A DNA stretch of 64,000 nt from a virus. Of this stretch, positions 26,097-59,008 are shown in pieces (the first letter of the stretch is position 1; each line of letters starts with the position of its first letter). The notes under the pieces are model-generated. The model saw only the letters and a program-made list of their open reading frames with translations. It was not told the origin of the DNA and did no database searches. The stretch lies in IMG/VR virus record IMGVR_UViG_3300045988_115849, one strand, 5' to 3'. The position numbers and the translations under genes were made by a program.

Positions 26097-26852
26097 ATGG
26101 CAAATACGGTAGACAAGCTTCTTACAGTAGCTAAAAGAGAAGTCGGATACTTAGAGAAGAAAAGCAACAAGAATCTAAACAGCAAGACAAAAAACGCAGG
26201 TAGCAACAACTACACTAAGTATGGAGCATACTTTGGCATTAACGGTACCGATGCCTACTGGTGTGACATGTTCGTGGATTGGTGTATGGTGCAGGCATAC
26301 GGCAGGGATGTAGCAAAAAAACTCTTACATGGCTTTAGTGCATACACTCCAACATCAGCACAAAAATTTAAAGACAATGACCAGTGGCATAAAACACCGC
26401 GGATTGGAGACCAGATTTTCTTCAAGAACTCTCAGAGAATCTGCCACACTGGGATTGTGTATGCAGTAACTGATGAGATGGTGTTCACGATCGAGGGTAA
26501 CACAAGTAACGGAGAAGCAGTTATTCCAAACGGTGGTGCTGTATGCAAGAAATCCTACGCAAAGAGTAACAGCCGTATCGCAGGATATGGACGACCTAAA
26601 TATGATAACGTAAAAGTATCATACAGCATTGTAAAAAAGAACTCTTCTAAATCTGCGATCAAGTGGTTACAGAAAAAGCTGAACGCAAATTGTACATACG
26701 CAAACGAACATCCATTAGCTATTGATGGAATCTGGGGAGCAAAGACAACGCAAGCCTTGAAGAAATACTGGAAACAGTTAGGATGGAACACGTCTGGAAC
26801 ATATGCAGGAAAGAAAACTTGCACAGCTTTGAAAAAAAATCGAAAAAAGTAG
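26097..26852 (+). CDS. Endolysin: N-terminal CHAP/NlpC-P60-type peptidase plus C-terminal peptidoglycan-binding domain
   Basis: ..GYLEKKSN..YWCDMFVDWC..ICHTGIVYAV..EGNTS (Cys/His catalytic pattern). C-terminal ..IKWLQKKLN..LAIDGIWGAKTTQALKKYWKQLGW (PG_binding_1-like). Confidence 0.85.
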   Translation: MANTVDKLLTVAKREVGYLEKKSNKNLNSKTKNAGSNNYTKYGAYFGINGTDAYWCDMFVDWCMVQAYGRDVAKKLLHGFSAYTPTSAQKFKDNDQWHKTPRIGDQIFFKNSQRICHTGIVYAVTDEMVFTIEGNTSNGEAVIPNGGAVCKKSYAKSNSRIAGYGRPKYDNVKVSYSIVKKNSSKSAIKWLQKKLNANCTYANEHPLAIDGIWGAKTTQALKKYWKQLGWNTSGTYAGKKTCTALKKNRKK

Positions 26853-27203: not shown

Positions 27204-28382
27204 TTAAGATACCATCTCACTACCTTGTTCCATTTTTTGTTCCATGCTTTGTTCCACTTTTTGTTCCAACGATAAGGCGTTATTGACAGCAGCAACACTA
27301 TCTTCTTTTTCAAGCATGATGTGGCTATAAACTTCTGCAACAACCTTTTCAGAGTCACCGACAAGCTCTGCAACTCTTTTAAAGCTGATAAGCGGAACTT
27401 GATAGCATAAGTTTGTACAGTAGTTGTGTCGGAAGATATGACTTGTTAGATCGACAATAGGAGCTTCACTGACTTCTTGCAGCGCTTTTAAAATTCTGCC
27501 CCACATTCTGCGATATCCACTCTTTGACATAGGTTTATAGTTTTGGTTGATAAATAAGTATTCCCTTTTTTCTTCTCTGAGTAGTTTGACATAATCTGCG
27601 ATCACGTCAAATACATTTGCAGGAATTGGAAGAACTCGTTCTCCATTTTCGATGTTTTTAACTGATTTTCGTTTTGGGATATTGTCTGAAATGTCGTGAG
27701 ATTTAAGTATTGATACCGTGTGGAATCGTAAGTCTATATCTGATTCTGTTAACGCCAGAGCTTCACCACAGCGTAATCCACAGCCATAAATGAGGTAAGT
27801 GTATACCATGTCCATCTGATACTTGTAGGATGCCTTAAAAACGGCGTTACGTTCGCTATGGGTCAATGGGCGTTTTTCTTTTGCTTTGTATTTTATCTTT
27901 TCTAATTTGTTAAATATGTCCTGATAACCTTGTGCCGGATAGATGTGATCACACACTGCGGATTCCATTACTTGACGGAAGGTCATAACAATCTGTTGTT
28001 GGGTCCTTAATTTGCCATCAGCATTGTTTAAAATCAATTGTAAATGGCTACGTTGTATATCTTGTAGCTTAACGTCTGTTAGTGGCTTAAAATGAACGTT
28101 AATAACATTGTCGTACATTTTAAGAGTATTGTTTGCCCTGTTGGACTTATATAAATTTTTCCATTGTTCACAGTATGCCATAAAAGACATATCTGTATTC
28201 ATAACAGCTTTTCGTTGATCACGGAGCTGTTCAAATTCTTTTACTTTTTTCTCTAAGTCACGGCTGCTTTGACGTGATCTTAAATGTTTATAATGTTTTT
28301 TGCCATTATCTTTGTATGTTCCATCCCATACATTTGTTGAATAGTAACCATCGGTGTCTTTTTTGTATTTTGCTTTAGCCAT
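27204..28382 (-). CDS. int: Tyrosine integrase
   Basis: Start MAKAKYKKD.. at 28382 after SD AAGGAG. C-terminal catalytic region ..GLRCGEALAL..HIFRHNYCT..VAEVYSHI (R..H-x-x-R..Y pattern). The C-terminal tail (EQKVEQSMEQKMEQ) is encoded by the GTTCCA repeats. Confidence 0.9.
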   Translation of the reverse strand: MAKAKYKKDTDGYYSTNVWDGTYKDNGKKHYKHLRSRQSSRDLEKKVKEFEQLRDQRKAVMNTDMSFMAYCEQWKNLYKSNRANNTLKMYDNVINVHFKPLTDVKLQDIQRSHLQLILNNADGKLRTQQQIVMTFRQVMESAVCDHIYPAQGYQDIFNKLEKIKYKAKEKRPLTHSERNAVFKASYKYQMDMVYTYLIYGCGLRCGEALALTESDIDLRFHTVSILKSHDISDNIPKRKSVKNIENGERVLPIPANVFDVIADYVKLLREEKREYLFINQNYKPMSKSGYRRMWGRILKALQEVSEAPIVDLTSHIFRHNYCTNLCYQVPLISFKRVAELVGDSEKVVAEVYSHIMLEKEDSVAAVNNALSLEQKVEQSMEQKMEQGSEMVS

Positions 28383-28484
28383 TGTATCACTCCTTAATTC
28401 TAAAAAATAGGTATAAAAATAACAGCTACGCAATTCCTAAAATTGGAATTTGCATAAAACGCAAAATGGTTAAAATTTTACGAC

Positions 28485-29328: not shown

Positions 29329-29760
29329 TTAAAGTCTCTTGAAGCTGACTAATCTTTCACCATATCCGGTTAATGACGATAGCTGTTCGAGAGTGTATCC
29401 CGGATGTTCGATAATCGTTTCATCTGGTATCAAAAGCTCCGCTGCAAAAGTATGAGCTTCAATTTCAACCTTGTTGCTGTAGAATTGTTCGCCATAGGAG
29501 AAGAAATAATAATCTCCGTCATGCAGTACGCAATGAGCTAATTCATGAGCAACTACAGCTTCTCGCATTTTTTCATCATCAATCCTATCATTTAAGTATA
29601 TAAATTTCTTGTCGCATATCTTCATGTGACATCCAGATAGTTCTCCTAAATCTCCGATTTGGATAATAACACCTAAGCTGTCTGCAAGCTGATATGGATT
29701 TCTTGTTTCGTATTTTTTAACCAAATCATGTACTAAATTTTTGATTTGATTCGGTCTCAT
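29329..29760 (-). CDS. ImmA/IrrE-family zinc metallopeptidase
   Basis: 143 aa with HEXXH (AHELAHCVLH). Immediately downstream of the XRE repressor, as in ImmR/ImmA modules. Confidence 0.85.
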   Translation of the reverse strand: MRPNQIKNLVHDLVKKYETRNPYQLADSLGVIIQIGDLGELSGCHMKICDKKFIYLNDRIDDEKMREAVVAHELAHCVLHDGDYYFFSYGEQFYSNKVEIEAHTFAAELLIPDETIIEHPGYTLEQLSSLTGYGERLVSFKRL

Positions 29761-29775
29761 ACATAACCCTCCTGT

Positions 29776-30147
29776 TTATTTTCTCATCATAGCCATGGAA
29801 ATCTCAACCTGTTTAAGCAAAAGCTCTTTTGTGTTATCGTCAATCGGTTGCCCGTCATAACGTAACGGTTGCATCTTTCCACTTTCTAGCAATTCTTTTA
29901 GTTCCTCAAATTTTTCTTTGAGATCGTCCGTGTTATCTTTCTCTTTTTGTCCATCCTCCTTTCCTGTCATCAAGTACTCAACAGACACACCGAAGAAGTC
30001 AGCGAGCTTTTGTAATCTCTCGACTTTTGGAGTACTGTTTTTCCATTTTGAAATTGAACCATTAGAAAAACCTAGTTGTTTTTCAAGCTTTCCTTGTGAT
30101 AATCCTTGTGACTTCCTAAGGCTTTCAATTCGCTCATAAATAGTCAT
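29776..30147 (-). CDS. XRE-family HTH repressor (CI/ImmR-like)
   Basis: 123 aa. N-terminal ..RIESLRKSQGLSQGKLEKQLGFSNGSISKWKNS.. HTH. Divergent from the cro-like gene. Confidence 0.85.
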   Translation of the reverse strand: MTIYERIESLRKSQGLSQGKLEKQLGFSNGSISKWKNSTPKVERLQKLADFFGVSVEYLMTGKEDGQKEKDNTDDLKEKFEELKELLESGKMQPLRYDGQPIDDNTKELLLKQVEISMAMMRK

Positions 30148-30167: not shown

Positions 30168-30218
30168 TTACAGAAACTTTTCTGTAAAAAACGCTTGACA
30201 AACTAGAAAGTTTTCTAT
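30168..30218. promoter_or_regulatory. Operator palindromes of the immunity switch
   Basis: TTACAGAAACTTTTCTGTAA (30168-30187, perfect palindrome) and TAGAAAGTTTTCTA (30204-30217, inside the rightward promoter spacer). Further ACAGAAA half-sites at about 30235, 30254 and 30267. Confidence 0.65.
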
Positions 30219-30223
30219 ATAGT
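30195..30223 (+). promoter_or_regulatory. Rightward early promoter (PR-like)
   Basis: TTGACA (30195-30200), 17 nt, TATAGT (30218-30223). Confidence 0.65.
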
Positions 30224-35639: not shown

Positions 35640-36125
35640 GCAAAGCAAAGGAAAAGTTAAGATGCGAAGAGAAAAGGAATAGCACGGAATTGTCAGGCAC
35701 CGAATTGGAATGGCGAGGAGTAGAAAAGTTTTGTTATGCAATGTGAAGGAAAAGCAATGATGAGTTTAGAGAAGCTTTGGAATAGCATGGTTCTGAACTG
35801 AATAGATACGACATGGAATAGAAATGTTTTGTTACGGAGCTGAATAGTGAAGGAATTGCATAGAGACGCATGGATTTGAGAAGAAAAGGCAAAGTAAAGA
35901 AATGACTGGATAATTATTTAGCTGAAATGTAGTGGCGTGGAGAGGAATAGAGTTGACATGATAAGGAATGGTAAAGAATGGAGATGTAAAGAATGGAGAT
36001 ATTGCGAAAAGGAAGGGAATAGAATTGATGCAATGTGCTTCGTTTGGCAAAGGACAAGCTCAGCGATCAGCAGAGTTGTGATGGAATAGCTACGTTCAGA
36101 GTGTTTAGAACATAAGAGCATAGCA
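35640..36125 (+). repeat. GA-rich, C-poor ORF-free region A with GAATAG iterons
   Basis: GGAATAG starts at 35676, 35779, 35815, 35944, 36016 and 36083. TGAATAG starts at 35799 and 35841. Perfect 15-nt tandem GTAAAGAATGGAGAT x2 at 35971-36000. Only one C in 35941-36000. Stops in all three + frames. Confidence 0.8.
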
Positions 36126-36161
36126 CCGAAAATGAAAACGTATTAAAAAGGAGAAAAAATA

Positions 36162-36782
36162 ATGAAAGAAATGAAAGTAAGATTAACATTTATTGAGGAA
36201 ATTTTAGGAACAGCAAGTAATGATAAGGAATTACATGCAGAGTACATTGCAAGCAAGGCACCTGATGCGATCAGTAAAAAAGAAGAGATTGAAGCAATTG
36301 GTGTTGAAGGCGTTATAGAAAAAGGAAAGACTGTATTTCCTAAAGATGAAAATGATAATCCATTTATCTATGATTACCAGATCAAAGGATTTTTCAAGAA
36401 CGCAGCAAAAGCATTCAACTATGTCAAGAAACTTGCAGCATACAAAACAAAGATTGACAATCTGATCTTCGTCAATGAACGAAAGATTCTGTTACAGATT
36501 CCAGAAGGAAAAGAAATGGGAAACTGCCAGAGACCATTAAGAGCGCAGACACCACAAGGAGAAAGAGTTGCACTTGCAAATAGTGATAGCTGTCCAGAAG
36601 GTACAGTTATTGAATTTACAGTAATGTCAATGGTTGATGATCTCATGGACAACGTGGAAATGTGGCTTGATTACGGAAAATTAAACGGAATTGGTCAGTG
36701 GCACAATAGCGGAAAAGGTCGCTTTGTGTGGGAGAAGCTTGACAAAAAAGGAAAAGTGATTGGCGGTAACAAGGAAGATTAA
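36162..36782 (+). CDS. Hypothetical protein upstream of RecT
   Basis: 206 aa, strong SD AAAGGAG. Motifs IKGFFKNAAKA and C-terminal GIGQWHNSGKGRFVWE. No family recognised with confidence. Confidence 0.6.
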   Translation: MKEMKVRLTFIEEILGTASNDKELHAEYIASKAPDAISKKEEIEAIGVEGVIEKGKTVFPKDENDNPFIYDYQIKGFFKNAAKAFNYVKKLAAYKTKIDNLIFVNERKILLQIPEGKEMGNCQRPLRAQTPQGERVALANSDSCPEGTVIEFTVMSMVDDLMDNVEMWLDYGKLNGIGQWHNSGKGRFVWEKLDKKGKVIGGNKED

Positions 36783-36842
36783 TTGATGTATTGAAAATTA
36801 GTTGAAGTAACAATTAAATTTTACATAGAAAGGTTGGTAAAA

Positions 36843-37763
36843 ATGGCAACAAAAACAGAGATTCAGGAACAGGGAAAAACTCAGGCAGCGGCAGTTATTA
36901 ACAATGCGTTCATTGATGGGTTAACAACACAACTTAATGAAAAGTGTAAATATGGAATGTCTTTTCCAAAAGACTACAATTTAGCAAATGCACTGACAGG
37001 TGCATATCTGGTATTAAAAGAAACTACAGACAGAAATAATAAGCCAATTTTAGAATCTTGCACACAGGCAAGTGTCGCAAACTCCTTAATGGATATGGCA
37101 ACTCTTGGTTTATCTGTACAGAAGAAACAGGGATACTTTATTGCTTATGGTAAGAAATGTTTATTCCAGAGATCATATTTTGGAAACGTGACAATTGCAA
37201 GAAGATATGGACTAGAAAAAATCAGTTCAGAAGTCATTTACGAAGGAGATCATTTCGAGTACGCAATTGTAGATGGAGAAAAAGTTCTCAAAGAACATAC
37301 TCAGGACTTTAACAACATTAACAACGACAAGATTGTTGGTGCTTACGCAGTTCTTACGATGAATGACGGACAAAAAATCTTAGAAGTAATGAACATTAAC
37401 CAGATTAAGCAGGCTTGGAAACAGGGATATGGATATCAAGAAGGTAAAGGAGTTCATGCTAAGTTTACAGACCAGATGGCCAAGAAAACAGTCATGAATC
37501 GTGCATTAAAGCAGATCATCAATACTCATGGAGATGCATTCGTTCAGGAAGCTGATGAAAGAACAGAGAAAATTCCAGAAGAGTCAGTAATTGAAGCTGA
37601 CGTAAGAGAAGATGTAGAGACAGGTTCTAATCAGGAAGAGTTTATTGTTGATGATGTTCAGGATACAGAAGAAGCTGTAGAAGAAGTCAAAAGTGCAGAT
37701 GATATTGCAGAAGAAGTAACAGAAGCTGATCTGCCGGACTTTATGGTTCAGGAAGATGAATAA
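36843..37763 (+). CDS. recT: RecT-family single-strand annealing recombinase
   Basis: ATG at 36843. ..SVANSLMDMATLGLSVQKKQGYFIAYGKKCLFQRSYFG.. and ..DQMAKKTVMNRALK.. match the RecT family pattern. Acidic C-terminal tail. Confidence 0.85.
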   Translation: MATKTEIQEQGKTQAAAVINNAFIDGLTTQLNEKCKYGMSFPKDYNLANALTGAYLVLKETTDRNNKPILESCTQASVANSLMDMATLGLSVQKKQGYFIAYGKKCLFQRSYFGNVTIARRYGLEKISSEVIYEGDHFEYAIVDGEKVLKEHTQDFNNINNDKIVGAYAVLTMNDGQKILEVMNINQIKQAWKQGYGYQEGKGVHAKFTDQMAKKTVMNRALKQIINTHGDAFVQEADERTEKIPEESVIEADVREDVETGSNQEEFIVDDVQDTEEAVEEVKSADDIAEEVTEADLPDFMVQEDE

Positions 37764-37837
37764 AATATTATTCTTCTGGTAGCAGTAACTTTAACTGATA
37801 GAATAAAAGCATTTGCAGATAAGAGAGTGGTGAGAAC

Positions 37838-38161
37838 ATGAAAATTTCAGAACTGCAATTAAATTGCAAATATGATGACAGCGTTATGGAAGAATTTAAA
37901 ACTTGTCACCCAAAGCAGATTATGAGCGAAGATATTCCAATTCCAATTTGGAAAATTATATATCGTTATAAAACTACTCGTGGTAACGACAGAACAGCAA
38001 CAAAATATATAATTTTAGAGGAATGTTCGTGGGATATGATTGACGATGAATTTCAACATTATATTGCTGAGTTCAATGAGAAACATCCAGAAAGAAAGCT
38101 ATCAAACGTAGAAATCCTTGATAGTGTATTTCTTGGAAAAGTATATATTCCACTTGAATAA
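37838..38161 (+). CDS. Hypothetical protein
   Basis: 107 aa, SD GGTGAG, co-directional and tightly packed. Confidence 0.5.
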   Translation: MKISELQLNCKYDDSVMEEFKTCHPKQIMSEDIPIPIWKIIYRYKTTRGNDRTATKYIILEECSWDMIDDEFQHYIAEFNEKHPERKLSNVEILDSVFLGKVYIPLE

Positions 38162-38358
38162 ATTTAAAAAATCAATTGTGATCAATTCCCTGTAAACAGG
38201 GTTGTATAGTGAGATGTCATGCATTACCCATGAAACATAGCGACAATGATGGCTAAAACGTAAAATCTTACGCCATGACCTAAGATAATTGGTTTCTAAG
38301 TATAAGATAAATACCTTTAACGGATGGGTAAAATCCAAAAGTTAAAGGAAGATTACAA
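38162..38358 (+). promoter_or_regulatory. 197-nt structured ORF-free leader with an SD-sequestering helix
   Basis: Hairpins CCCTG/CAGGG (38188-38201) and ATGGC..GCCAT enclosing CGTAA/TTACG (38249-38275). The helix CCTTTAAC (38314-38321) / GTTAAAGG (38341-38348) takes in the SD AAAGGAAG of the TTG start at 38359. Confidence 0.45.
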
Positions 38359-39639
38359 TTGAATCCAATCTATGATGGATATATTAATTTTTTAAGAGAA
38401 ATGTCTGGTGAAAAATTACCAGATTTAAAAGAAGGATATTTTTGGCTTAACAGACAGATTATTAAAGGATTTGACAAGCAAGGAAATATACATAAATTTT
38501 ACAAAGTTGTTGTTTCTAATGATTTAGAAGCTGTTGAAATTAAAAAACTAAAAACATATGAAAACGTACAGGATATAGATTTAATCAGTTGGAAAGAACT
38601 AATCGACTTAAATAAAGAACATTTAATTCAAATTGAATCTGAGTTATTGAATCTAATCAAAGAAAAGATGCAGAAATACGAGAACTATACTTCGATTATT
38701 CCTGTGTCAATGGGAAAAGATTCTATGGTTACATGTCATCTTGTGAGAAGTTTATATCCTGATACAAAAGCAATATTTAACAATACATCCTTAGATTGTG
38801 CAGACACATATCAAATGGTAAAAGAGTTTACGAATTGTGAAATCATGAATCCAGATAAAGGATTCTATCAATATGTAGCATCTAATCATATGATTCCAAC
38901 TAGATTTTCAAGATTCTGTTGCAGGATTTTCAAAACAGGCGTAATGATATCACAACTTGACCATAATCATCCGTATTTATTGTGGATGGGAATGAGAAAT
39001 GAAGAATCAAATACAAGAAGCTCTTATGAAGATGAATGGGTTAACAAATCTGAATGGGGTAAGACTTGTTGGAAAGGAATTTTACCTATTAGAAAATGGA
39101 CAGAGTTTGATGTCTGGTTGTATACGATATGGAAAGACATTACTGTTAATCCTAAATACAAGAAGGGCTATGCAAGAGTTGGCTGCCATTGTGCTTGTCC
39201 ATTTTATACAAAATCTACATGGATTCTTGATAAATACTGGTATCCAAAATCGTACAAAAGATGGAGAGAGATTCTTAGAGAAGATTTCATAAGCAATAAG
39301 AAATGGATTATTATGAATTGCACATTGGATGAATATTTAACGCAAGCTTGGAACGGTGGAACATTTAGGAATGAGCCAACAGAAGAAGTTATAAATGAGT
39401 TTGCTGAATATTTTGGTATTGATCAGAATGTGGCAATTAAATATTTTAACAAAGCATGTGATTGCTGCGGTAAAAGAATTAAACACAAAGAAGTTTTGAG
39501 TATGAATCTCAAATTACATGGTAGAAACATTGATAAATTCTATTGTAAGAAATGTCTTATGAAAGAATATAGTTGGGATTCTTGTGATTGGGACAAACAA
39601 ATTACAATGTTTAAACAATCAGGATGTGAGCTATTTTGA
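38359..39639 (+). CDS. PAPS-reductase-like PP-loop enzyme with a Cys-rich C-terminal domain (IbrA / DUF3440-like)
   Basis: 426 aa. PP-loop-like IIPVSMGKDSMV. C-terminal cysteine clusters (..CDCCGKRIKHKE..FYCKKCLMKEY..). No ParB-like partner gene is adjacent. Confidence 0.7.
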   Translation: MNPIYDGYINFLREMSGEKLPDLKEGYFWLNRQIIKGFDKQGNIHKFYKVVVSNDLEAVEIKKLKTYENVQDIDLISWKELIDLNKEHLIQIESELLNLIKEKMQKYENYTSIIPVSMGKDSMVTCHLVRSLYPDTKAIFNNTSLDCADTYQMVKEFTNCEIMNPDKGFYQYVASNHMIPTRFSRFCCRIFKTGVMISQLDHNHPYLLWMGMRNEESNTRSSYEDEWVNKSEWGKTCWKGILPIRKWTEFDVWLYTIWKDITVNPKYKKGYARVGCHCACPFYTKSTWILDKYWYPKSYKRWREILREDFISNKKWIIMNCTLDEYLTQAWNGGTFRNEPTEEVINEFAEYFGIDQNVAIKYFNKACDCCGKRIKHKEVLSMNLKLHGRNIDKFYCKKCLMKEYSWDSCDWDKQITMFKQSGCELF

Positions 39640-39655
39640 AAGGAGAATAACAAAC

Positions 39656-40321
39656 ATGGTAATTAATGGTAAAAAATTTAAAGAAGTAAATATTACAAAA
39701 GATGGAGAGCTGATCGTATCTATCGCAGATGGAGAACATGGAATCGTGCATAAAGATGATTACACAGTACAGCTTGTTGTAGAAGAAATTGGCATGACGT
39801 TTTCAGAAGCATTTAAAGCAATGAAAGCAGGAGCAAAAGTCAAACTTCCATCTTGGGGCGGATATTGGTACTGGGATACAGAAAAAGAAACTATCATGAT
39901 GCAGTGCAGACCGAAAGATACCGATAAGGGGCAAGGAGACTTATTAGACGTTAGGGAGACACAGAGAGTCGAATATACACTTTCTAACATTTTGTCTGAT
40001 GAATGGCTAATCGCAGATGAAACGAATTGTCCAGTTTTAGGCGGAGAAGCCACATTTGGATTTGGAGATGCTATCAAGTACGTGAAACGTGGACTTAAAG
40101 TTAAGAGAAAAGGATGGAACGGAAAGAATCAGTATATCCAGTTAGCAACAGGAATTTTATATAATACAGCAGACAAAACAATTGTTAATTGCGATCATGA
40201 AGCCATCGGAAATAAAGCAGTGGCATTTGCAGTGGCATTTGTGGGAACATCTGGTGTACAGATGGGGTGGTTAGCATCACAGGCTGATATGTTAGCAGAA
40301 GATTGGATGTTTGTAGATTAG
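39656..40321 (+). CDS. Tandem DUF2829 (Tad2-like) protein
   Basis: ATG at 39656 after SD AAAGGAGAA. Two halves: ..MTFSEAFKAMKAGAKVKLPSWGGYWYWD..LSDEWLIAD and ..FGFGDAIKYVKRGLKVKRKGWNGKNQYIQLA..MGWLASQADMLAEDWMFVD. The second carries the W-x-A-S-Q-x-D-x-L-A-E-D-W signature. Confidence 0.7.
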   Translation: MVINGKKFKEVNITKDGELIVSIADGEHGIVHKDDYTVQLVVEEIGMTFSEAFKAMKAGAKVKLPSWGGYWYWDTEKETIMMQCRPKDTDKGQGDLLDVRETQRVEYTLSNILSDEWLIADETNCPVLGGEATFGFGDAIKYVKRGLKVKRKGWNGKNQYIQLATGILYNTADKTIVNCDHEAIGNKAVAFAVAFVGTSGVQMGWLASQADMLAEDWMFVD

Positions 40322-40331
40322 GAGTTGATAT

Positions 40332-40628
40332 ATGAGTAAATATGTAAAGAAACCTGTTGTGGTAGAAGCTGTTAAATGGAATGGAAATAACATCGAAGAA
40401 GTAAAAGAATTTATGAAAGAACAACTTGATAAATTGCATTTTGAAAGCATGGATGCAAGTAATTTAGAAGAAGGAAAACTTTCAATGGTTGACTTTCTTG
40501 CGATTCAAACTCTTGAAGGTGTTATGACTGTATCAGACGGAGACTACATAATTAAGGGTGTTAATGGTGAGTTCTATCCATGTAAACCTGATATTTTCAA
40601 AAAAACATATGAACCATATAACGAATAA
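40332..40628 (+). CDS. Hypothetical protein
   Basis: 98 aa, SD TAGGAG. ..KKPVVVEAVKWNG..GDYIIKGVNGEFYPCKPDIFKKTYEPY, a pattern common in phage proteins of unknown function. Confidence 0.55.
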   Translation: MSKYVKKPVVVEAVKWNGNNIEEVKEFMKEQLDKLHFESMDASNLEEGKLSMVDFLAIQTLEGVMTVSDGDYIIKGVNGEFYPCKPDIFKKTYEPYNE

Positions 40629-40639
40629 AGGAGAAGAAA

Positions 40640-40903
40640 ATGGAAAGCAGAGAATTTTTAGCGGTATGCAAAGCCAAGATTGCAGATTATGTGAATGATC
40701 ATATTGATAAGACAGATCAGAAACATCTTACGATCAACGATGTATACGTTGTCTTGTATGCTAAGACATTACAGAATCATAAAGCGTTACTGAGTACAAC
40801 GTTATTAGACGGAATGTACTATGAAATGACATTCAACGGAGACAAGAGAGAGTTGTACATGGATGCTTACAAAAAGTGGGAAAACATCAAATTTGATATG
40901 TAG
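40640..40903 (+). CDS. Hypothetical protein
   Basis: 87 aa, SD AAAGGAGAAG. Confidence 0.5.
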   Translation: MESREFLAVCKAKIADYVNDHIDKTDQKHLTINDVYVVLYAKTLQNHKALLSTTLLDGMYYEMTFNGDKRELYMDAYKKWENIKFDM

Positions 40904-40912
40904 AGGTGGAAA

Positions 40913-41317
40913 ATGGTTGGTACTCTTGAAGAAATGAAAGACGATTTAGCAACAGTAACAGATTACACAAAAAACGGAGAGTGTTCGCAGTGCGGTAAGT
41001 GCTGCGCCAACCTTCTTCCGTTATCACTTGGAGAAGTTAACAGGATCAAAAGATATGTGAAAGAACACAATATCAAAGAAAATGTGCATAAACCACCAAT
41101 CGTAGGTAAATTTGTGGATATGACATGTCCATTTAGAGACGATGTCAGAAAGATTTGTACAATTTACGAAGTTAGACCGATGATCTGTAAAGATTTTAGA
41201 TGCGACAAGGCAGCAAAGGATATTCAGGCTTCTAAGAGATTGTATTATGCAAGAAGAAATCCAGTGGACTTAAGAAAGGAAATATTCAGAAATGTCAATG
41301 TGGCTAAAAGTAATTAA
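40913..41317 (+). CDS. YkgJ-type cysteine-cluster (CxxCxxCC) protein
   Basis: 134 aa. CSQCGKCCANLLPLS plus downstream Cys residues (..MTCPF..ICTIYEVRPMICKDFRC). Confidence 0.65.
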   Translation: MVGTLEEMKDDLATVTDYTKNGECSQCGKCCANLLPLSLGEVNRIKRYVKEHNIKENVHKPPIVGKFVDMTCPFRDDVRKICTIYEVRPMICKDFRCDKAAKDIQASKRLYYARRNPVDLRKEIFRNVNVAKSN

Positions 41318-42092
41318 CACAGGAAGTCAGTATGGTAATTGCTATGCATTAATGAGTGGAGATGGAGAAATCTTATTGCTTGACTGCGGATGTAAATTTA
41401 AAGACATTCTAAGGGGAATTAATTATAGGATAGCAGATGTGGCAGGGTGTTTATTGACTCATATCCACGGAGATCATGCAAAATCATATAAAAATCTTAC
41501 TAAGAATGGAATAGCAATATACAGCAATAATGAGACAGTAGAACATTTTGGAGCATATGATCCAATAGAATATTTTGATCTTGGAATTGGTGGAATGATA
41601 GGAAAAAAAGAAAGAAAGCCGTTTGAGTGTGGAAGTTTCAATGTGATTCCGTTCTATCTGCCACACACAACAAAAGACAAAGATACTGGGGAAATCATAC
41701 CGTGTCCAAACTTTGGATATTTTATACAACACAAGGACATGGGAAGTCTAGTATACATGACGGATTTTGAATACCCTACACTATCTTTTAGATCGGCGAA
41801 AATCAATCATCTTCTATGTGAAGTTAATTACTGTGAGGAATTTGTTGATAAATCGGCAGCAAACTTTGAACATCGACTCAAAGGACATTTATCTTTTGAG
41901 ACATTCAAAGAAAAGGTTTTGAAACAGAATATGACAGATGCATTAAAAACAGTAACGATTTGTCACTTAAGTGATGCAGCAGCCGATGAACAAATGATTC
42001 TAAATCAAACAAAAGAGATTACAGGAAATGACATTGAAGTTAACATTGCTAAAAGATCATTATGTGTAAATCTAAATTACATACCGTTTTGA
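41292..42092 (+). CDS. Metallo-beta-lactamase-fold hydrolase (probable nuclease of the recombination module)
   Basis: 266 aa. ..LLLDCGCKF.. and the HxHxDH motif (LLTHIHGDHAKS). Confidence 0.75.
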   Translation: MSMWLKVINTGSQYGNCYALMSGDGEILLLDCGCKFKDILRGINYRIADVAGCLLTHIHGDHAKSYKNLTKNGIAIYSNNETVEHFGAYDPIEYFDLGIGGMIGKKERKPFECGSFNVIPFYLPHTTKDKDTGEIIPCPNFGYFIQHKDMGSLVYMTDFEYPTLSFRSAKINHLLCEVNYCEEFVDKSAANFEHRLKGHLSFETFKEKVLKQNMTDALKTVTICHLSDAAADEQMILNQTKEITGNDIEVNIAKRSLCVNLNYIPF

Positions 42093-42320
42093 TTAGTGTT
42101 GAAAAAGAAAAGATATGACATGAAACGGAATAGCGAGGAAAGGTTTTGCTTGGAAATGGCATGGCGTGGATAAGTGACGATATGAGCAGAGATGTGATGA
42201 CAAGGAAAGGTATAGAGCAGTTAGGGAATAGCAATGCGTAGATAAGTGTTATGATGCAATGGATATGAGAAGAATAGAGTTGAGATGGAATTGCATAGAG
42301 TAGAATAGTTCAGAGAAAGG
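42093..42320 (+). repeat. GA-rich, C-poor ORF-free region B, paralogous to region A
   Basis: GGAATAG starts at 42127 and 42225. AGAATAG starts at 42271 and 42302. Shared blocks with region A: GAATAGAGTTGA(C/G)ATG, GGAATTGCATAGAG, GGCGTGGA. Confidence 0.75.
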
Positions 42321-42327
42321 AAATAAT

Positions 42328-42486
42328 ATGTTTTGGTTAGTTTGGTTAGGAATTGGATTGTATGGAATGATTCCTATAGTGATTTTTGTTTTAACACTTA
42401 AGATTTATATTAAAAATGTTGAGACAGAAAAAAGAATTAAAAAGATAATGAATGGAATCTGTATTTTATCTAATAAAAAGTGGTGA
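42328..42486 (+). CDS. Small TM protein (52 aa, below the ORF-track cutoff)
   Basis: ATG at 42328 after SD AGAAAGGAAA. MFWLVWLGIGLYGMIPIVIFVLTLKIYIKNVETEKRIKKIMNGICILSNKKW. Confidence 0.4.
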   Translation: MFWLVWLGIGLYGMIPIVIFVLTLKIYIKNVETEKRIKKIMNGICILSNKKW

Positions 42487-42556
42487 TGCATCACAGTATC
42501 ACAAAAGATTCGATGATGGATGATGGTAAAATATAGGTAGAAAGGACGAATGATAC

Positions 42557-43123
42557 ATGATTATTGGAGTAGACAAAGCGCAAAAAGCAGGAAAACATAA
42601 TCTTAAACACAACATGTTAAAAAATCGCGGCCATAAGCTTGTTGATATTCCATGTCCAGTAGGAGATTACATAGAGATAACACCAGAAATTCAGGAAGTT
42701 ATCGAAAGACGTGGGGACAAGCTAAAAAAAATGGACTTGATCGGCTGCATTGATAAATCTGTTGATACAAAAAAAGATTGTCAAGAATTGTACCAGTGTT
42801 TAGTGAAGTCACATAAGAGATTTTCAGATTCTTGCTTTTTGGCAAGCAATAATGGTATTAAGCTGTATATTCTCGTTGAGAATAAAGACGGTGTTACTAG
42901 TATTGATACGTTTGGAAGATGGAAGAATGAGAGTTGTTGGAAACGTTATTTCGTAAACAAGAGACGTTGCGAGAATAAAGGAGAAAAGCCACCAAAGGAA
43001 CCATGCAAGCCGTCTCAATTAAAGCAGATCATGAACACAATGAATAAAAAATATGGAGTAGAGTTTTTGTTTTGCAGACCAGAAAAGGCAGCAGAAAAAA
43101 TCGAAGAACTACTTTCTGAATAG
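42557..43123 (+). CDS. Putative nuclease (ERCC4 / PD-(D/E)XK-like motifs)
   Basis: 188 aa. ..PCPVGDYIEI.. and ..SVDTKKDCQELYQCL.. loosely resemble the GDY...E/D-x-K core of ERCC4-type nucleases. Unverified. Confidence 0.35.
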   Translation: MIIGVDKAQKAGKHNLKHNMLKNRGHKLVDIPCPVGDYIEITPEIQEVIERRGDKLKKMDLIGCIDKSVDTKKDCQELYQCLVKSHKRFSDSCFLASNNGIKLYILVENKDGVTSIDTFGRWKNESCWKRYFVNKRRCENKGEKPPKEPCKPSQLKQIMNTMNKKYGVEFLFCRPEKAAEKIEELLSE

Positions 43124-43194
43124 CATTTCTACAAATGATACACGGGCACGTCAGCCCACCTAAAATCAAATGAAAATTAAATAGAGGTAATCTT

Positions 43195-43968
43195 ATGTCT
43201 GATAAAAAATATTATTATCTGAGATTGAAAGATTTTTTAGACACAGAAGAATTTAAAATCTTAGAATCTCAGGAAGACGGATATTTGTATTCTAATATTC
43301 TTATGAAAATGTATCTTATCAGCTTAAAGAAGAGTGAAAGATTGGCATTAAATGGCATGATTCCATACGATGTAGACATGATTGCGACTTTAACAGAGCA
43401 TTGTGTTGAAGTTGTAAAAGAAGCACTGAAACATCTTGTGAAGTTAGGGCTGATTGAAATGTTAAGCGCAGGAGCTGTCTATATGATGGATGTTCAAAAC
43501 TATGTGTGTCAATCATCAAATACGGAATACAAATCAAAAGAAGAAAAAGCAGATGTTGAAGAATATAAGCCAAAGAAAGAAACGGCAAGAGAACGAATTG
43601 ATTACGCAAGAATCGTTGATAAATACAATGAAATTTGTAAATCGTATTCAAGGGTTACTAGATTGTCCAAGAGAAGAAAAGACACGATCAGAGCAAGATT
43701 TAACGCCGGTTATACATATGAAGATTTTGAAAAGGCATTTGAAATAGTGGAAGAATCTGATTTTCTTAAAGGAAAAAACAATAGAAATTGGTGTGCAAAC
43801 TTTGATTGGATATGCAACGACACAAATTTAGCGAAAATCTTAGACGGAAATTACGCAAACAGGAAGGATGATAAATATGGAAGGAATGGAGAAGATCATA
43901 GAAAATCTTCATTCGCTGAAAAAGCAATCGAACTTGGGGCAGCCGACACAGATTTCAAAGGATTCTGA
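43195..43968 (+). CDS. Phage replisome organizer (N-terminal organizer domain plus conserved phage C-terminal domain)
   Basis: MSDKKYYYLRLKDFLDTEEFKILESQEDGYLYSNILMKMYL.. and C-terminal ..RRKDTIRARFNAGYTYEDFEKAFEIVEESDFLKGKNNRNWCANFDWI.. match the two known replisome-organizer regions. Confidence 0.8.
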   Translation: MSDKKYYYLRLKDFLDTEEFKILESQEDGYLYSNILMKMYLISLKKSERLALNGMIPYDVDMIATLTEHCVEVVKEALKHLVKLGLIEMLSAGAVYMMDVQNYVCQSSNTEYKSKEEKADVEEYKPKKETARERIDYARIVDKYNEICKSYSRVTRLSKRRKDTIRARFNAGYTYEDFEKAFEIVEESDFLKGKNNRNWCANFDWICNDTNLAKILDGNYANRKDDKYGRNGEDHRKSSFAEKAIELGAADTDFKGF

Positions 43969-44707
43969 TGTATGTCCGCTATGCAATGGTACTGGTTGGA
44001 TTCCTGTTGAAAAAGACGGAGAAACAGTGTTTAGAGAGTGCAAATGCAGGCAAGAACAGATTAATCACAATAGATTGAAATTTGCAAATGTACCTGAACC
44101 ATTTAGAAACTTAAAATTAGCTGATTTTAATATTGCTTATTATAAGGAAGAAAAAAATAAGAAATTGGTCAGGATTGCTTGTAAGATTATCAAAAATTAC
44201 ATTGATAACTTCCAGACGTTTCAAGGAAAGGGAGTTGGATTGTACATCTATTCAAAAACAAAAGGTTCTGGAAAAACAAGAATGGCTGCAAGTATGGCAA
44301 ATCAGTTTTTGGCTGATGGCCACAGAGTAAAATTTGCAACTTCAAGTGAAATCATAGAACAGATCAAAAAAACATGGGACCAAGACAGCAAAATAAGTGA
44401 AAGAGATTTGTTGGCTGATCTGAAAGATGTAGAAATTCTAATCATAGATGATTTCGGAGCAGAAAAAAACAGCACTTGGATTAATGATAAATTTTACCAG
44501 ATCGTTAATTACAGATACATAAACAAACTGGTAACGATTTATACAAGCAATTATACAGAGAATGAAGTTCAGTACAATGAACGAATTTCAAGTCGAATAA
44601 AAGAATGTTCGTATAGTGTGCAGTTTCCTGAGGAAAGCGTCAGGGACCATATATACGAACAGAGAAACAATGAGATGATCAAAAAAATATTGGAAGGTGA
44701 GGTGTAA
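43877..44707 (+). CDS. DnaC/IstB-like helicase loader ATPase
   Basis: ATG at 43877 after SD AGGAAGG. N-terminal CPLCNGTGW..CKC zinc motif, Walker A KTKGSGKTRMA, Walker B ILIIDDFG. Confidence 0.85.
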   Translation: MEGMEKIIENLHSLKKQSNLGQPTQISKDSDVCPLCNGTGWIPVEKDGETVFRECKCRQEQINHNRLKFANVPEPFRNLKLADFNIAYYKEEKNKKLVRIACKIIKNYIDNFQTFQGKGVGLYIYSKTKGSGKTRMAASMANQFLADGHRVKFATSSEIIEQIKKTWDQDSKISERDLLADLKDVEILIIDDFGAEKNSTWINDKFYQIVNYRYINKLVTIYTSNYTENEVQYNERISSRIKECSYSVQFPEESVRDHIYEQRNNEMIKKILEGEV

Positions 44708-57103: not shown

Positions 57104-57889
57104 TTATTTTCCATCCGTCTTTGAGTTTTTATTGAATTTTTTCCATCTTTCCGGATATACTTCTTGGAACCATTCAAGAAAATTTCCAAACAGAGCATCT
57201 TCGGCTTCTTTTCTTACTGCGGCTGCATCTTCTATATTATTGTATCTTCCTAAATGGTATGTTTTGCCTTTAAATACTATTGTAGCGGCCCATTTTCGCC
57301 GATTTTTGTCCCAACTAACACCACAAACTCCAGATGTGTTATTCCGTAACATTTTTCTAGGTTTGATTGATATAATGGATGTATTTTCTATATATCCTTG
57401 TTCACATGTTTCCGCAGCCTTTTTGAGGTTTTCTCTGGCACTTCTTTGATGTGAGCAACCACAAGACATTTGTTTGTAAAACAGTCCGGCAGGAACTAGG
57501 TAGTGATTTCCACAAGAACATTCGCATTCCCATTTGTACCGATTTCCAATCCTTATTTGTTTAATTGCTTTACAGCCATAATCGTTAATTTTACCAGTAA
57601 GATCAGTTGGCTTATAGTGATTAGCTTCGGCAAAACATCCGCAAGATTGAGTTCGACCAGATGTTAGAGCATCGTATCTTACAGTTTTTGTATTTCCACA
57701 TTCACATTTGCAAATGGCATAAACTTTTCCTTTTTTTCTATAAGCATCTATGATAGTTAATTTTCCCCACTTTTCTCCATTAAATTCATTTGTATATTGT
57801 GGTGCGTTTTTGCATTCTTCGGAGCAATATTTTGCACTTGGTGCCCCATCAAAAGTCTTTCCACAGACAACGCATTCTTTTAAAGACAC
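57104..57889 (-). CDS. AP2-domain DNA-binding protein with CxCxCG...SCGC zinc-repeat modules
   Basis: N-terminal CVVCGKTF..YCSEEC. Repeats AICKCECGNTKTV..SCGC and WECECSCGNHYLV..SCGC. C-terminal ..SGVCGVSWDKNRRKWAATIVFKGKTYHLGRYNNIEDAAAVRKEAE (AP2 pattern). Start is GTG 57889 or TTG 57895. Confidence 0.75.
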   Translation of the reverse strand: MSLKECVVCGKTFDGAPSAKYCSEECKNAPQYTNEFNGEKWGKLTIIDAYRKKGKVYAICKCECGNTKTVRYDALTSGRTQSCGCFAEANHYKPTDLTGKINDYGCKAIKQIRIGNRYKWECECSCGNHYLVPAGLFYKQMSCGCSHQRSARENLKKAAETCEQGYIENTSIISIKPRKMLRNNTSGVCGVSWDKNRRKWAATIVFKGKTYHLGRYNNIEDAAAVRKEAEDALFGNFLEWFQEVYPERWKKFNKNSKTDGK

Positions 57890-57915
57890 AAACAACCACT
57901 CCTTCCTTTTGATAA

Positions 57916-58345: not shown

Positions 58346-59008
58346 ATGCCAATGGATTGGCTTGGCTCTGTTGGAAAGACAGTAAATGGATACAGAATAT
58401 TGGAAGCATATAAAAAGAACGGAAAAACTATGATTAAAGCTGAATGTCCTAAATGTGGAAGACAGTACAATGTTGGATATGATGCTATGAGTAGGAAGAA
58501 ACCTTGCATTTGCTGTAACAAAAACAGGATGAAAGATATTACCGGTCAGCGATTCGGAAGGCTTATTGCTTTAGAACCTGTCGGAAGGTCAAACAATGGC
58601 GGAGCCGTAATATGGCTTTGCCAATGTGATTGCGGTAACACGACAAAAGTTGAACAAGGTAAATTAGCAATAGGAGCTGTCAAAAGTTGTGGGTGCTTAA
58701 AGAATGAAGCAGAGAAAAAGCAAGGTGATAGGCTTATTCAGGAAACCATGAAAACGTGTGTTGACGGGACCAATATTAAGAATTTATCATCGAAAGTAGG
58801 CAAATCAAATACATCTGGAATACGTGGAGTCAGTTGGAACAAAAGACGTAAGAAATGGCAAGCATATATAATGTTTAAAAAGAAGATGTATCATCTTGGA
58901 ATGTATGATAAAAAAGAGGATGCTGCAAAAGCAAGAAAAGAAGCAGAAGATAAGTATTTTAACGCATTTCTTGATGAATATAACAAAAATATGAATAACA
59001 TTGACTAA
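58346..59008 (+). CDS. AP2-domain DNA-binding protein with zinc-repeat modules (paralogue of 57104..57889)
   Basis: ..AECPKCGRQYNV..PCICC, WLCQCDCGNTTKV..SCGC. C-terminal ..SGIRGVSWNKRRKKWQAYIMFKKKMYHLGMYDKKEDAAKARKEAE. Confidence 0.75.
   Translation: MPMDWLGSVGKTVNGYRILEAYKKNGKTMIKAECPKCGRQYNVGYDAMSRKKPCICCNKNRMKDITGQRFGRLIALEPVGRSNNGGAVIWLCQCDCGNTTKVEQGKLAIGAVKSCGCLKNEAEKKQGDRLIQETMKTCVDGTNIKNLSSKVGKSNTSGIRGVSWNKRRKKWQAYIMFKKKMYHLGMYDKKEDAAKARKEAEDKYFNAFLDEYNKNMNNID

What the first reader, a model, noticed from the sequence alone, without database searches (positions are those of the whole stretch)
39656..40321. Tandem DUF2829 (Tad2-like) protein: candidate sponge for Thoeris-type immune signals
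The 221-aa protein contains two DUF2829-like halves. The second carries the characteristic ..KRGLKVKRKGWNGKNQYIQL..WLASQADMLAEDWMFV signature. Single-domain DUF2829 proteins (Tad2) were shown to sequester the gcADPR signalling molecules of Thoeris defence (Yirmiya et al., 2024). A fused tandem version could form the binding pockets within one chain or could bind two different ligands. It sits in the early operon, which is the appropriate timing for counter-defence.
Basis: partly seen in the sequence, partly recalled or inferred. Interest (0 to 1): 0.65.

Follow-up and report, generated by a model that had tools for sequence, protein, structure and literature searches.

The report
Two-domain Tad2-like phage sponge candidate
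A gut prophage gene encodes two different copies of the Tad2 fold, which phages use to soak up bacterial alarm molecules: one copy keeps the known binding residues, the other has a conserved, altered set, and its function was not tested here.

Summary
Window 39656-40321 (+) is a real 221-aa ORF with an AAGGAG ribosome-binding site. It matches Pfam PF11195 (Tad2-like) at 86.5 bits in two stretches.

The protein has three parts, not two:
- Residues 1-46: a beta-rich extension that many relatives lack.
- Residues 47-121: a diverged "N-type" Tad2 domain. Alone it scores 22 bits, below Pfam's cut-off. It aligns with the C half at hhalign 94.7%, E 1.3e-8.
- Residues 134-221: a canonical "C-type" Tad2 domain. 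It is 41% identical to a validated Thoeris inhibitor.

The C half keeps the gcADPR pocket residues (W154, N155, W205, S208, D211). The N half carries W67, G68, Y107, T108 and N111 at the matching positions, and most of these are conserved.

This N-C tandem is widespread in prophages of gut Clostridia. The two halves diverge independently (r = 0.19), which points to two modular sites. Bacillus-group phages carry a split two-gene form.

Most likely it is an early-expressed immune-signal sponge that works as a dimer mimicking the Tad2 tetramer. Ligand, oligomeric state and anti-Thoeris activity are untested. I rate it a new variant of a known kind, of moderate interest.

The parts
39640..39645 (+). 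Shine-Dalgarno AAGGAG, 10 nt upstream of the start codon
   Evidence: Read directly from the sequence. The upstream PAPS-reductase gene stops at 39637-39639.
39656..40321 (+). Tandem Tad2-like gene (221 aa plus stop)
   Evidence: ORF list and translation. PF11195 86.5 bits, two stretches. PHROG 1048 E 1.8e-61. An identical protein occurs on at least 14 metagenome contigs.
39656..39793 (+). N-terminal extension, residues 1-46, beta-rich, not Tad2-like
   Evidence: Absent from the phage relatives phiRg507T2_3 gp19 and DO134P1_11, which start at the residue equivalent to M47. Present in about 43 of 121 close homologues. The AF2 model shows three short strands with pLDDT 60-81.
39794..40018 (+). 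N-type Tad2-like domain, residues 47-121. Pocket-equivalent residues are W67, G68, G69, Y70, W71, Y107, T108 and N111.
   Evidence: PF11195 22.2 bits alone. hhalign against the C half 94.7%, E 1.3e-8. Conservation in 90 tandems: W67 90/90, G69 88, Y70 81, W71 86, Y107 71, T108 75, N111 81; position 68 varies (G 57/90). Secondary-structure order matches Tad2.
40019..40054 (+). Conserved linker, residues 122-133 (ETNCPVLGGEAT)
   Evidence: N124 73/90, L128 78/90, G129 67/90, G130 67/90. The same NCxVLGG segment precedes C-type domains fused to other partners (P0140, P0144). It resembles LLGEETGTF, which precedes the pdAcrIIA7 core.
40055..40318 (+). C-type (canonical) Tad2 domain, residues 134-221. 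Pocket residues are W154, N155, W205, S208, A210 and D211.
   Evidence: PF11195 71.1 bits alone. PDB sequence hits to AcrIIA7, SPO1 Tad2, HgmTad2, ModTad2 and SptTad2, E 1e-8 to 9e-10. 41% identity to the validated R. callidus Tad2. Pocket residues mapped from 10.1101/2023.05.01.538930. Conserved in 79-89 of 90 tandems.
40217..40240 (+). 12-bp tandem duplication GCAGTGGCATTT x2, giving AVAF-AVAF at residues 188-195 inside the C-type domain
   Evidence: Read from the sequence. Present in only about 10 of 121 close homologues. Residues 186-190 have pLDDT below 50 in the model.
30195..30223 (+). Best sigma-70-like promoter match (TTGACA-17-TATAGT), between the leftward repressor genes and the rightward early cluster. 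It is the likely source of transcription through the gene.
   Evidence: Consensus scan, 11 of 12 matches. HTH repressor and ImmA-like genes lie on the minus strand at 29329-30147. Genes are co-directional and tightly packed from 30576 to beyond 45144. Assigning this site to the gene is inference.
40332..40903 (+). Two small downstream genes that recur beside, or fused to, Tad2 domains: a 98-aa phrog_419 protein (40332-40628) and DUF6275 (40640-40903)
   Evidence: DUF6275 lies next to the tandem gene in 20 of 80 prophage loci, and phrog_419 in 6 of 80. Fusions: DUF6275 + Tad2 in P0228 (Pfam hits) and phrog_419-like + Tad2 in P0140 (N-terminal part judged by eye from the sequence; Pfam finds only the Tad2 domain there).

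Best explanation
The gene encodes a Tad2-family immune-signal sponge built from two different Tad2-fold modules on one chain.

Shown:
- The C-type module keeps the residues that bind TIR-made gcADPR in SPO1 Tad2 and HgmTad2. These are a Trp-Asn pair in the beta1-beta2 loop and the W-x-x-S-x-x-D helix.
- The N-type module keeps the fold and the central Trp. Its other pocket positions carry a different set: G, Y, T and N; the last three are conserved, while the position equivalent to N26 varies.

Inferred:
- Two chains pair to give four Tad2 folds, imitating the homotetramer of single-domain Tad2.
- C-type domains pair with each other to form a canonical gcADPR-type pocket.
- N-type domains form a second kind of site for an unknown ligand.
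- The protein is made from the early rightward operon after infection or induction. It would sequester Thoeris-type signals (most likely 3'cADPR / 1''-3' gcADPR) before they activate the effector, so abortive infection fails.
For: Family and fold:
- PF11195 at 86.5 bits.
- Foldseek of the AF2 model (pLDDT 80, pTM 0.59) gives 24 PDB hits at E <= 1e-3. All are Tad2-family structures, with target-normalised TM 0.58-0.79.
- BFVD hits are mostly Tad2-like proteins, the rest unnamed or uncharacterised.

Pocket:
- W154, N155, W205, S208 and D211 align with SPO1 W25, N26, W73, S76 and D79, and with HgmTad2 W21, N22, W87, S90 and D93.
- These residues are kept in 79-89 of 90 tandem homologues.
- The C half is 41% identical to the R. 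callidus Tad2, which inhibited Thoeris experimentally.

Modularity:
- Identity of the N and C halves to the query is uncorrelated (r = 0.19).
- 13 proteins have a C half 64-69% identical with an N half only 24-37% identical. Three show the reverse pattern.
- The conserved N signature pairs with varied C signatures, and the reverse also occurs.

Related forms:
- Split two-gene forms exist: SpaA1/BceA1 P60 (WGGYW type) and P61 (canonical), overlapping by 1 nt.
- Stand-alone N-type genes exist: RG-TP1 gp24, CP51_006 and P0180.

Precedent and context:
- Fusions of Tad2 with other sponges (Acb4, Sequestin) block two systems at once (10.1101/2025.07.12.664507).
- The gene sits between the RecT / PAPS-reductase genes and the replication genes. 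It lies downstream of the lysogeny switch.
Against: - No binding, oligomer or plating data exist for any tandem member. I found no paper that mentions this architecture.
- The adenine-contacting Thr (SPO1 T78, HgmTad2 T92) is Ala here, and SPO1 D67 and H71 have no equivalent.
- A 4-residue duplication sits in the strand just before the pocket loop.
- The pairing I propose (C with C, N with N) rests only on uncoupled divergence, which domain shuffling could also produce. Hybrid N-C pockets are not excluded.
- Foldseek output does not say which half aligned. Structural support for the N half is therefore only secondary-structure order plus the profile alignment.
- The host is unknown, so I could not check whether it carries Thoeris.
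Confidence: 0.55

Rival explanations
1. It is a sponge, but its main targets are not gcADPR. They could be cyclic di- or mononucleotides (CBASS cGG/cGAMP, Pycsar cCMP/cUMP) or other TIR products (His-ADPR, N7-cADPR). These would bind at the second kind of Tad2 site, within the V-shaped dimer interface, or at the remodelled N-type site.
For: - Tad2 homologues collectively inhibit CBASS, Pycsar and three Thoeris types, and many inhibit more than one system (10.1101/2025.08.24.671296).
- HgmTad2 and MoTad2 use a separate pocket for cyclic nucleotides.
- The N half has a conserved non-canonical signature.
- An MBL hydrolase 1 kb downstream shows weak Apyc1 similarity, which suggests a broader counter-signalling cluster.
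Against: - The cyclic-dinucleotide site of HgmTad2 depends on a long insertion. Its Trp-to-Trp spacing is 66, against 48 in SPO1 Tad2, which does not bind these ligands. Here the spacing is 51, or 47 without the duplication. This counts against that particular site.
- The canonical gcADPR residues are under strong conservation.
Confidence: 0.25
2. It is an AcrIIA7-type anti-CRISPR. The assembled Tad2 cores would form a basic groove that binds tracrRNA and blocks Cas9 loading.
For: - The best PDB sequence hit is pdAcrIIA7 (9kzr, E 8.7e-10).
- The C half keeps the three lysines whose mutation abolished sgRNA binding (K58, K66, K71 correspond to K144, K152, K157) (PMC13133391; alignment).
- The C half is basic, pI 8.8.
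Against: - These lysines are general Tad2-family features.
- The N half keeps only one of them (K57) and is acidic, pI 4.85. A groove lined by four cores would be only half basic.
- In pdAcrIIA7, activity required removal of the N-terminal head domain (section headings). Here a whole extra domain occupies that position.
Confidence: 0.05
3. The Tad2 fold here serves a function unrelated to defence, or the protein is a decaying duplicate with only one working half and no special role for the tandem.
For: - PHROG 1048 and all database names say unknown function.
- One of five Tad2 homologues tested did not inhibit Thoeris.
- The gene's position varies between phages: between holin and endolysin, among head genes, or in the early region.
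- Frameshifted or truncated copies are common in assemblies.
Against: - The tandem is kept intact in prophages from about 70 species-representative genomes of gut Clostridia. It forms at least 60 clusters at 50% identity.
- Near-invariant residues occur in both halves.
- A variable, moron-like position is typical of counter-defence genes.
Confidence: 0.1

Closest known systems
SPO1 Tad2 (gp34.65; PDB 8SME/8SMF/8SMG) and the validated Ruminococcus callidus Tad2
   Same: - Same Pfam family and fold.
- The C half is 34% identical to SPO1 Tad2 and 41% identical to the R. callidus protein.
- It keeps W25, N26, W73, S76 and D79 equivalents, and has a similar short insertion length.
   Different: - Those are 83-89-aa single-domain proteins that form homotetramers. 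This is 221 aa, with an extra diverged Tad2 domain and a 46-aa extension.
- T78 is Ala here, and D67 and H71 have no equivalent.
HgmTad2 / AcrIIA7 (PDB 8KBI-8KBM, 9KZR)
   Same: - Best sequence hits in the PDB.
- Shared GWNGK and GWLASQxDMLAxDW motifs.
- pdAcrIIA7 also carries an N-terminal add-on, joined through an LLGEETGTF-like segment.
   Different: - HgmTad2 has a long insertion that makes a cyclic-dinucleotide pocket, which is absent here.
- The pdAcrIIA7 add-on is a two-helix head, not a second Tad2 fold.
Sponge fusion proteins: Acb4-Tad2 (Pasteurella phage Pm86) and Tad2-Sequestin (PF21825)
   Same: One chain joins two signal-binding modules. The published Acb4-Tad2 fusion blocks both Thoeris and CBASS.
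   Different: Those fuse unrelated folds. Here both modules are Tad2 folds of two subtypes, joined by a short conserved linker, so they may co-assemble into one pseudo-tetramer.
Adjacent DUF2829 gene pairs in Bacillus-group phages (SpaA1/BceA1 P60 + P61, Waukesha92, phi4J1 and others)
   Same: A WGGYW-type gene is followed directly by a canonical WNG-type gene, in the same order as the two halves here.
   Different: - They are two separate 80- and 87-aa proteins.
- P60 is intermediate between the types: it keeps QADMLAEDW, and scores 37.7 bits on the N model against 46.6 on the C model.
PHROG 1048, and the phage proteins phiRg507T2_3 gp19 and Dorea phage DO134P1_00011
   Same: Same N-C tandem, 66-75% identical over residues 47-221.
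   Different: They lack the 46-aa extension. They sit among late or lysis genes, and are annotated only as hypothetical.

Membership tests
Tad2 / DUF2829 (Pfam PF11195) | Significant match to the family profile above the curated cut-off | tested here: met
   86.5 bits against 25 for the whole protein. The C half alone scores 71.1 bits. The N half alone scores 22.2 bits, below the cut-off.
Tad2 / DUF2829 (Pfam PF11195) | Fold: N-terminal helix followed by a five-stranded antiparallel sheet, with short helices in the beta2-beta3 and beta4-beta5 loops | tested here: met
   The AF2 model (pLDDT 80) hits only Tad2 structures at E <= 1e-3, with TMt 0.58-0.79. Both halves show the helix-strand order described for Tad2. 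The tool does not report which half aligned.
Tad2 / DUF2829 (Pfam PF11195) | gcADPR pocket residues (SPO1 W25, N26, W73, D79; HgmTad2 W21, N22, S90, T92, D93) in the C half | tested here: met
   W154, N155, W205, S208 and D211 are present. T78/T92 is Ala210.
Tad2 / DUF2829 (Pfam PF11195) | The same pocket residues in the N half | tested here: not met
   W67 is kept, but N26 is G68, W73 is Y107 and D79 is N111, and the loop is 2 residues shorter.
Tad2 / DUF2829 (Pfam PF11195) | Homotetramer with ligand pockets at protomer interfaces | not testable with these tools
   Only monomer prediction without coordinates was available. A dimer of tandems is inferred.
Tad2 / DUF2829 (Pfam PF11195) | Sequesters TIR-derived signal and rescues phage from Thoeris | not testable with these tools
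   Requires biochemistry and plating assays.
Long-insertion Tad2 that also binds cyclic dinucleotides (HgmTad2, SptTad2) | Extended insertion between beta2 and beta5 that carries the R31, S47, F70 and N85 site | tested here: not met
   Trp-to-Trp spacing is 51 here (47 without the duplication), against 66 in HgmTad2 and 48 in SPO1 Tad2. Some close relatives, such as P0028, carry a longer cassette with spacing 57.
AcrIIA7-type tracrRNA binder | Basic groove residues K58, K66 and K71 on every core of the tetramer | tested here: inconclusive
   The C half has K144, K152 and K157. The N half has only K57 (S66 and Y70 elsewhere). RNA binding cannot be tested here.

The most novel reading that the evidence does not exclude
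The N-type domain would define a separate Tad2 subfamily whose remodelled pocket binds a second immune signal that has not been assigned. Its signature is W-x-G-Y-W in the first loop and Y-T-x-x-N in place of W-x-x-S-x-x-D. The fused protein would then be a single-chain sponge with two specificities, assembled as a pseudo-tetramer. By the same logic, the neighbouring DUF6275 and phrog_419 proteins, which also occur fused to Tad2 domains, would be further undescribed signal-binding modules.
Probability: 0.25. Interest if true: 0.7.

Novelty: new variant of a known kind. Interest (0 to 1): 0.5.

Why it matters
Tad2 is the most widespread known family of phage sponges for bacterial immune signals, and all characterised members are single-domain homotetramers. 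This gene shows a common but undescribed format in gut Clostridia prophages: two different Tad2 modules on one chain.

- It is a natural case for asking how a symmetric sponge becomes asymmetric, and whether that widens its ligand range.
- The conserved N-type signature gives a defined target for ligand discovery.
- The recurring neighbours and fusion partners (DUF6275, phrog_419, DUF4406) are testable candidates for new counter-defence modules. Published work has already used fusion to a known sponge to find new sponge families.

Tried and rejected
- Megablast of 36000-44000 against 50,697 phage records gave no match, so no close annotated relative could be used.
- A PDB sequence search with the N half alone gave only chance hits, E about 1.
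- The first AF2 run used a shallow alignment of 26 close homologues. It gave pLDDT 64.5 and was discarded. A 40-sequence diverse alignment gave pLDDT 80.
- NCBIfam has no model for the protein or its two small neighbours.
- The N-type motifs (WGGYW, WGGFW, LPSWGG) were absent from the held supplementary tables of the two main Tad2 papers. I could not tell whether a tandem had ever been tested.
- Literature searches for Tad2 + tandem, for DUF6275, and for Thoeris + Lachnospiraceae returned nothing useful.
- I considered that M47 might be the true start, as in phiRg507T2_3 and DO134P1. I rejected this because ATG 39656 has the AAGGAG site and many homologues share the extension.
- I considered that stand-alone N-type proteins are common. 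Most 'N-only' cluster representatives turned out to be frameshifted or truncated tandems, and only a few are genuine.
- A hybrid N-C pocket remains possible and was not rejected.

Full report
**1. The observation**

Window 39656-40321 (+) is an intact ORF of 221 codons. An AAGGAG lies at 39640-45, 10 nt before the ATG. The upstream gene stops at 39639.

Some gene callers extend the ORF to a GTG at 39584, giving 245 aa (P0001). That reading overlaps the upstream gene. About 43 of 121 close homologues begin M-V/I-I-N/D-G, as read here.

Pfam PF11195 (Tad2-like, formerly DUF2829) matches at E 1.8e-24, 86.5 bits against a cut-off of 25, in two stretches. Both quoted signature strings are present.

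**2. Anatomy: three parts, not two**

- *Residues 134-221 are a canonical Tad2 domain.* Alone it scores 71.1 bits. It hits pdAcrIIA7, SPO1 Tad2, HgmTad2, ModTad2 and SptTad2 in the PDB at E 1e-8 to 9e-10. It is 41% identical to the R. callidus Tad2, which inhibited Thoeris experimentally, and 34% identical to SPO1 Tad2.
- *Residues 47-121 are a diverged Tad2 domain.* Alone it scores 22.2 bits, below Pfam's cut-off, and it has no direct PDB sequence hit. A profile of 40 N halves aligns end to end with the profile of C halves (hhalign 94.7%, E 1.3e-8). An N-half HMM scores ModTad2 and SPO1 Tad2 at 14-17 bits. The predicted helix-strand order is that of Tad2.
- *Residues 1-46 are a beta-rich extension.* The phage relatives phiRg507T2_3 gp19 and Dorea DO134P1_00011 lack it and start at the residue equivalent to M47.
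- *The 12-residue linker (ETNCPVLGGEAT) is conserved*. The same segment precedes C-type domains fused to other partners.

An AF2 model from a diverse 40-sequence alignment reached pLDDT 80 and pTM 0.59. All 24 of its significant PDB matches are Tad2-family structures.

**3. Pocket residues**

In SPO1 Tad2, gcADPR is held by W25, N26, W73 and D79 from two protomers, with S76 and T78 also contributing (10.1101/2023.05.01.538930). The HgmTad2 equivalents are W21/N22 and S90/T92/D93 (10.1101/2023.11.15.567273).

| SPO1 Tad2 | C half | N half |
|---|---|---|
| W25 | W154 | W67 |
| N26 | N155 | G68 |
| W73 | W205 | Y107 |
| S76 | S208 | T108 |
| T78 | A210 | S110 |
| D79 | D211 | N111 |

- The only change there is Thr to Ala at position 210. 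The N-half mapping comes from the profile alignment.
- In the N half the loop is also two residues shorter.
- Across 90 non-identical tandem proteins, the C-half residues are kept in 79-89 sequences.
- The N-half set is also conserved: W67 90/90, G69 88, Y70 81, W71 86, Y107 71, T108 75, N111 81. Position 68 varies.

The N half is therefore remodelled and constrained, not decayed.

**4. Distribution and evolution**

- A search of 1.84 billion cluster representatives gave 2,728 hits at E <= 1e-3. Among the best 150, about 60 are N-C tandems and about 60 are C-type only. There are a few C-C, N-C-C and longer arrays.
- A scan of GTDB species genomes kept 80 loci, 69 of them with a full-length tandem. 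The hosts are gut Clostridia, including Blautia, Dorea, Bariatricus, Mediterraneibacter, Faecalimonas, Oscillospiraceae and Ruminococcus bromii.
- The exact protein occurs on at least 14 metagenome contigs of up to 72 kb.
- The two halves diverge independently. Identity to the query is uncorrelated between halves (r = 0.19). Thirteen proteins keep a C half 64-69% identical with an N half only 24-37% identical, and three show the reverse.
- Bacillus-group phages carry the same order as two adjacent genes. These are SpaA1/BceA1 P60 (a WGGYW type, intermediate in score) and P61 (canonical), overlapping by one base.
- Genuine stand-alone N-type genes exist but are few (RG-TP1 gp24, CP51_006, P0180). 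Most 'N-only' representatives are broken tandems.

**5. Context**

The window is a temperate siphovirus-like genome.

- Structural and lysis genes: major capsid 1977-3047 and a CHAP endolysin at 26097-26852.
- Lysogeny module: integrase 27204-28433 (-), an ImmA-like peptidase and an HTH repressor on the minus strand.
- Best promoter-like site: 30195-30223, facing right.
- A co-directional, tightly packed cluster follows. It contains Rha/KilAC and Bro antirepressors, SSB, an SbcC-like ATPase, RecT, a PAPS-reductase-family protein, the tandem Tad2 gene and a 98-aa phrog_419 protein. It continues with DUF6275, a CxxCxxCC protein, an MBL hydrolase, an ERCC4-like nuclease, a replisome organiser and a DnaC-like loader.

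Early expression is therefore inferred from organisation, not shown. In relatives the tandem gene sits elsewhere, between holin and endolysin or among head genes. That is moron-like behaviour.

**6. Mechanism**

Shown:
- Family membership and fold.
- A complete canonical pocket signature in the C half.
- A different conserved signature in the N half.
- Modular evolution of the two halves.

Inferred:
- Two chains assemble into a pseudo-tetramer of four Tad2 folds.
- Because the halves evolve independently, I favour like-with-like pairing at the pocket interface. This gives one canonical gcADPR-type site (C-C') and one site of unknown specificity (N-N').
- Hybrid N-C pockets remain possible.
- The short Trp-to-Trp spacing (51, against 66 in HgmTad2) argues against an HgmTad2-type cyclic-dinucleotide site.
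- The AcrIIA7 tracrRNA mechanism (PMC13133391) is less likely. Only the C half keeps the three critical lysines, and the N half is acidic.

**7. Novelty**

- Tad2 fused to unrelated sponges is published.
- None of the Tad2 papers I could search mentions a Tad2-Tad2 hetero-tandem.
- Databases call these proteins DUF2829 or hypothetical.

I class it as a new variant of a known kind. It is a sound and testable lead, but the central functional claim is still unverified.

Noticed in passing
window 40640-40903 (+): The DUF6275 (PF19791) gene lies directly beside the tandem Tad2 gene in 20 of 80 prophage loci that otherwise share almost no other window gene. It is fused to a C-type Tad2 domain in P0228 (117 bits + 72 bits). 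No paper in the library mentions DUF6275. It is a candidate counter-defence or sponge module.
   Followed up: partly
window 40332-40628 (+): A 98-aa phrog_419 protein with no Pfam, NCBIfam or PDB match. A protein with a similar N-terminal region is fused to a C-type Tad2 domain through the same NCxVLGG linker (P0140; similarity judged by eye from the sequence). A similar domain follows an N-type domain in P0224. The gene is adjacent to the Tad2 gene in 6 of 80 loci.
   Followed up: partly
window 41292-42092 (+): An MBL-fold hydrolase with a THIHGDH motif (PHROG 392). Its only PDB sequence hits are the anti-Pycsar nuclease Apyc1 (7u2s, 7u2r; E about 1e-4), over the N-terminal 65 residues only. 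The Pfam Apyc1 score is 26.5 bits against a cut-off of 50. It may be a cyclic-nucleotide phosphodiesterase, but membership is not established.
   Followed up: partly
window 40217-40240 (+): A perfect 12-bp tandem duplication (GCAGTGGCATTT x2) inserts AVAF into a strand of the C-type domain just before the pocket loop. It is found in only about 10 of 121 close homologues, and model confidence is low there. Its effect on function is unknown.
   Followed up: partly
P0047, P0195, P0190 (homologues, not in the window): DUF4406 domains (nucleoside-deoxyribosyltransferase-like by my recollection, not checked here) are fused N-terminally to Tad2 domains in P0047 and P0195. P0190 carries a DUF4406-like tail after its N-type domain. 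This is another recurring partner.
   Followed up: partly
P0200 (481 aa), P0135 (242 aa), P0122, P0181, P0219: Longer arrays of DUF2829-like domains exist. These include an N-type domain followed by four 'WWPEG' repeats, a triple, and C-C tandems.
   Followed up: no
P0028, P0030, P0031, P0079 and relatives, compared with window residues 158-203: Close homologues (about 70-76% identical overall) carry a completely different, longer insertion cassette in the C-type domain. The flanks are nearly identical, which suggests cassette exchange in the region that sets cyclic-nucleotide binding in other Tad2 proteins.
   Followed up: no
window 38359-39639 (+): A 426-aa PAPS-reductase-family protein with a Cys-rich C-terminal tail lies immediately upstream (PHROG 424, moron/auxiliary metabolic category). 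Its role in the early operon is unexplained.
   Followed up: no
window 57104-57892 (-), 58346-59008 (+), 62578-63654 (+): Two proteins have sub-threshold AP2-domain matches. Another carries an LPD29 (large polyvalent protein-associated) domain. All lie in the distal part of the window.
   Followed up: no
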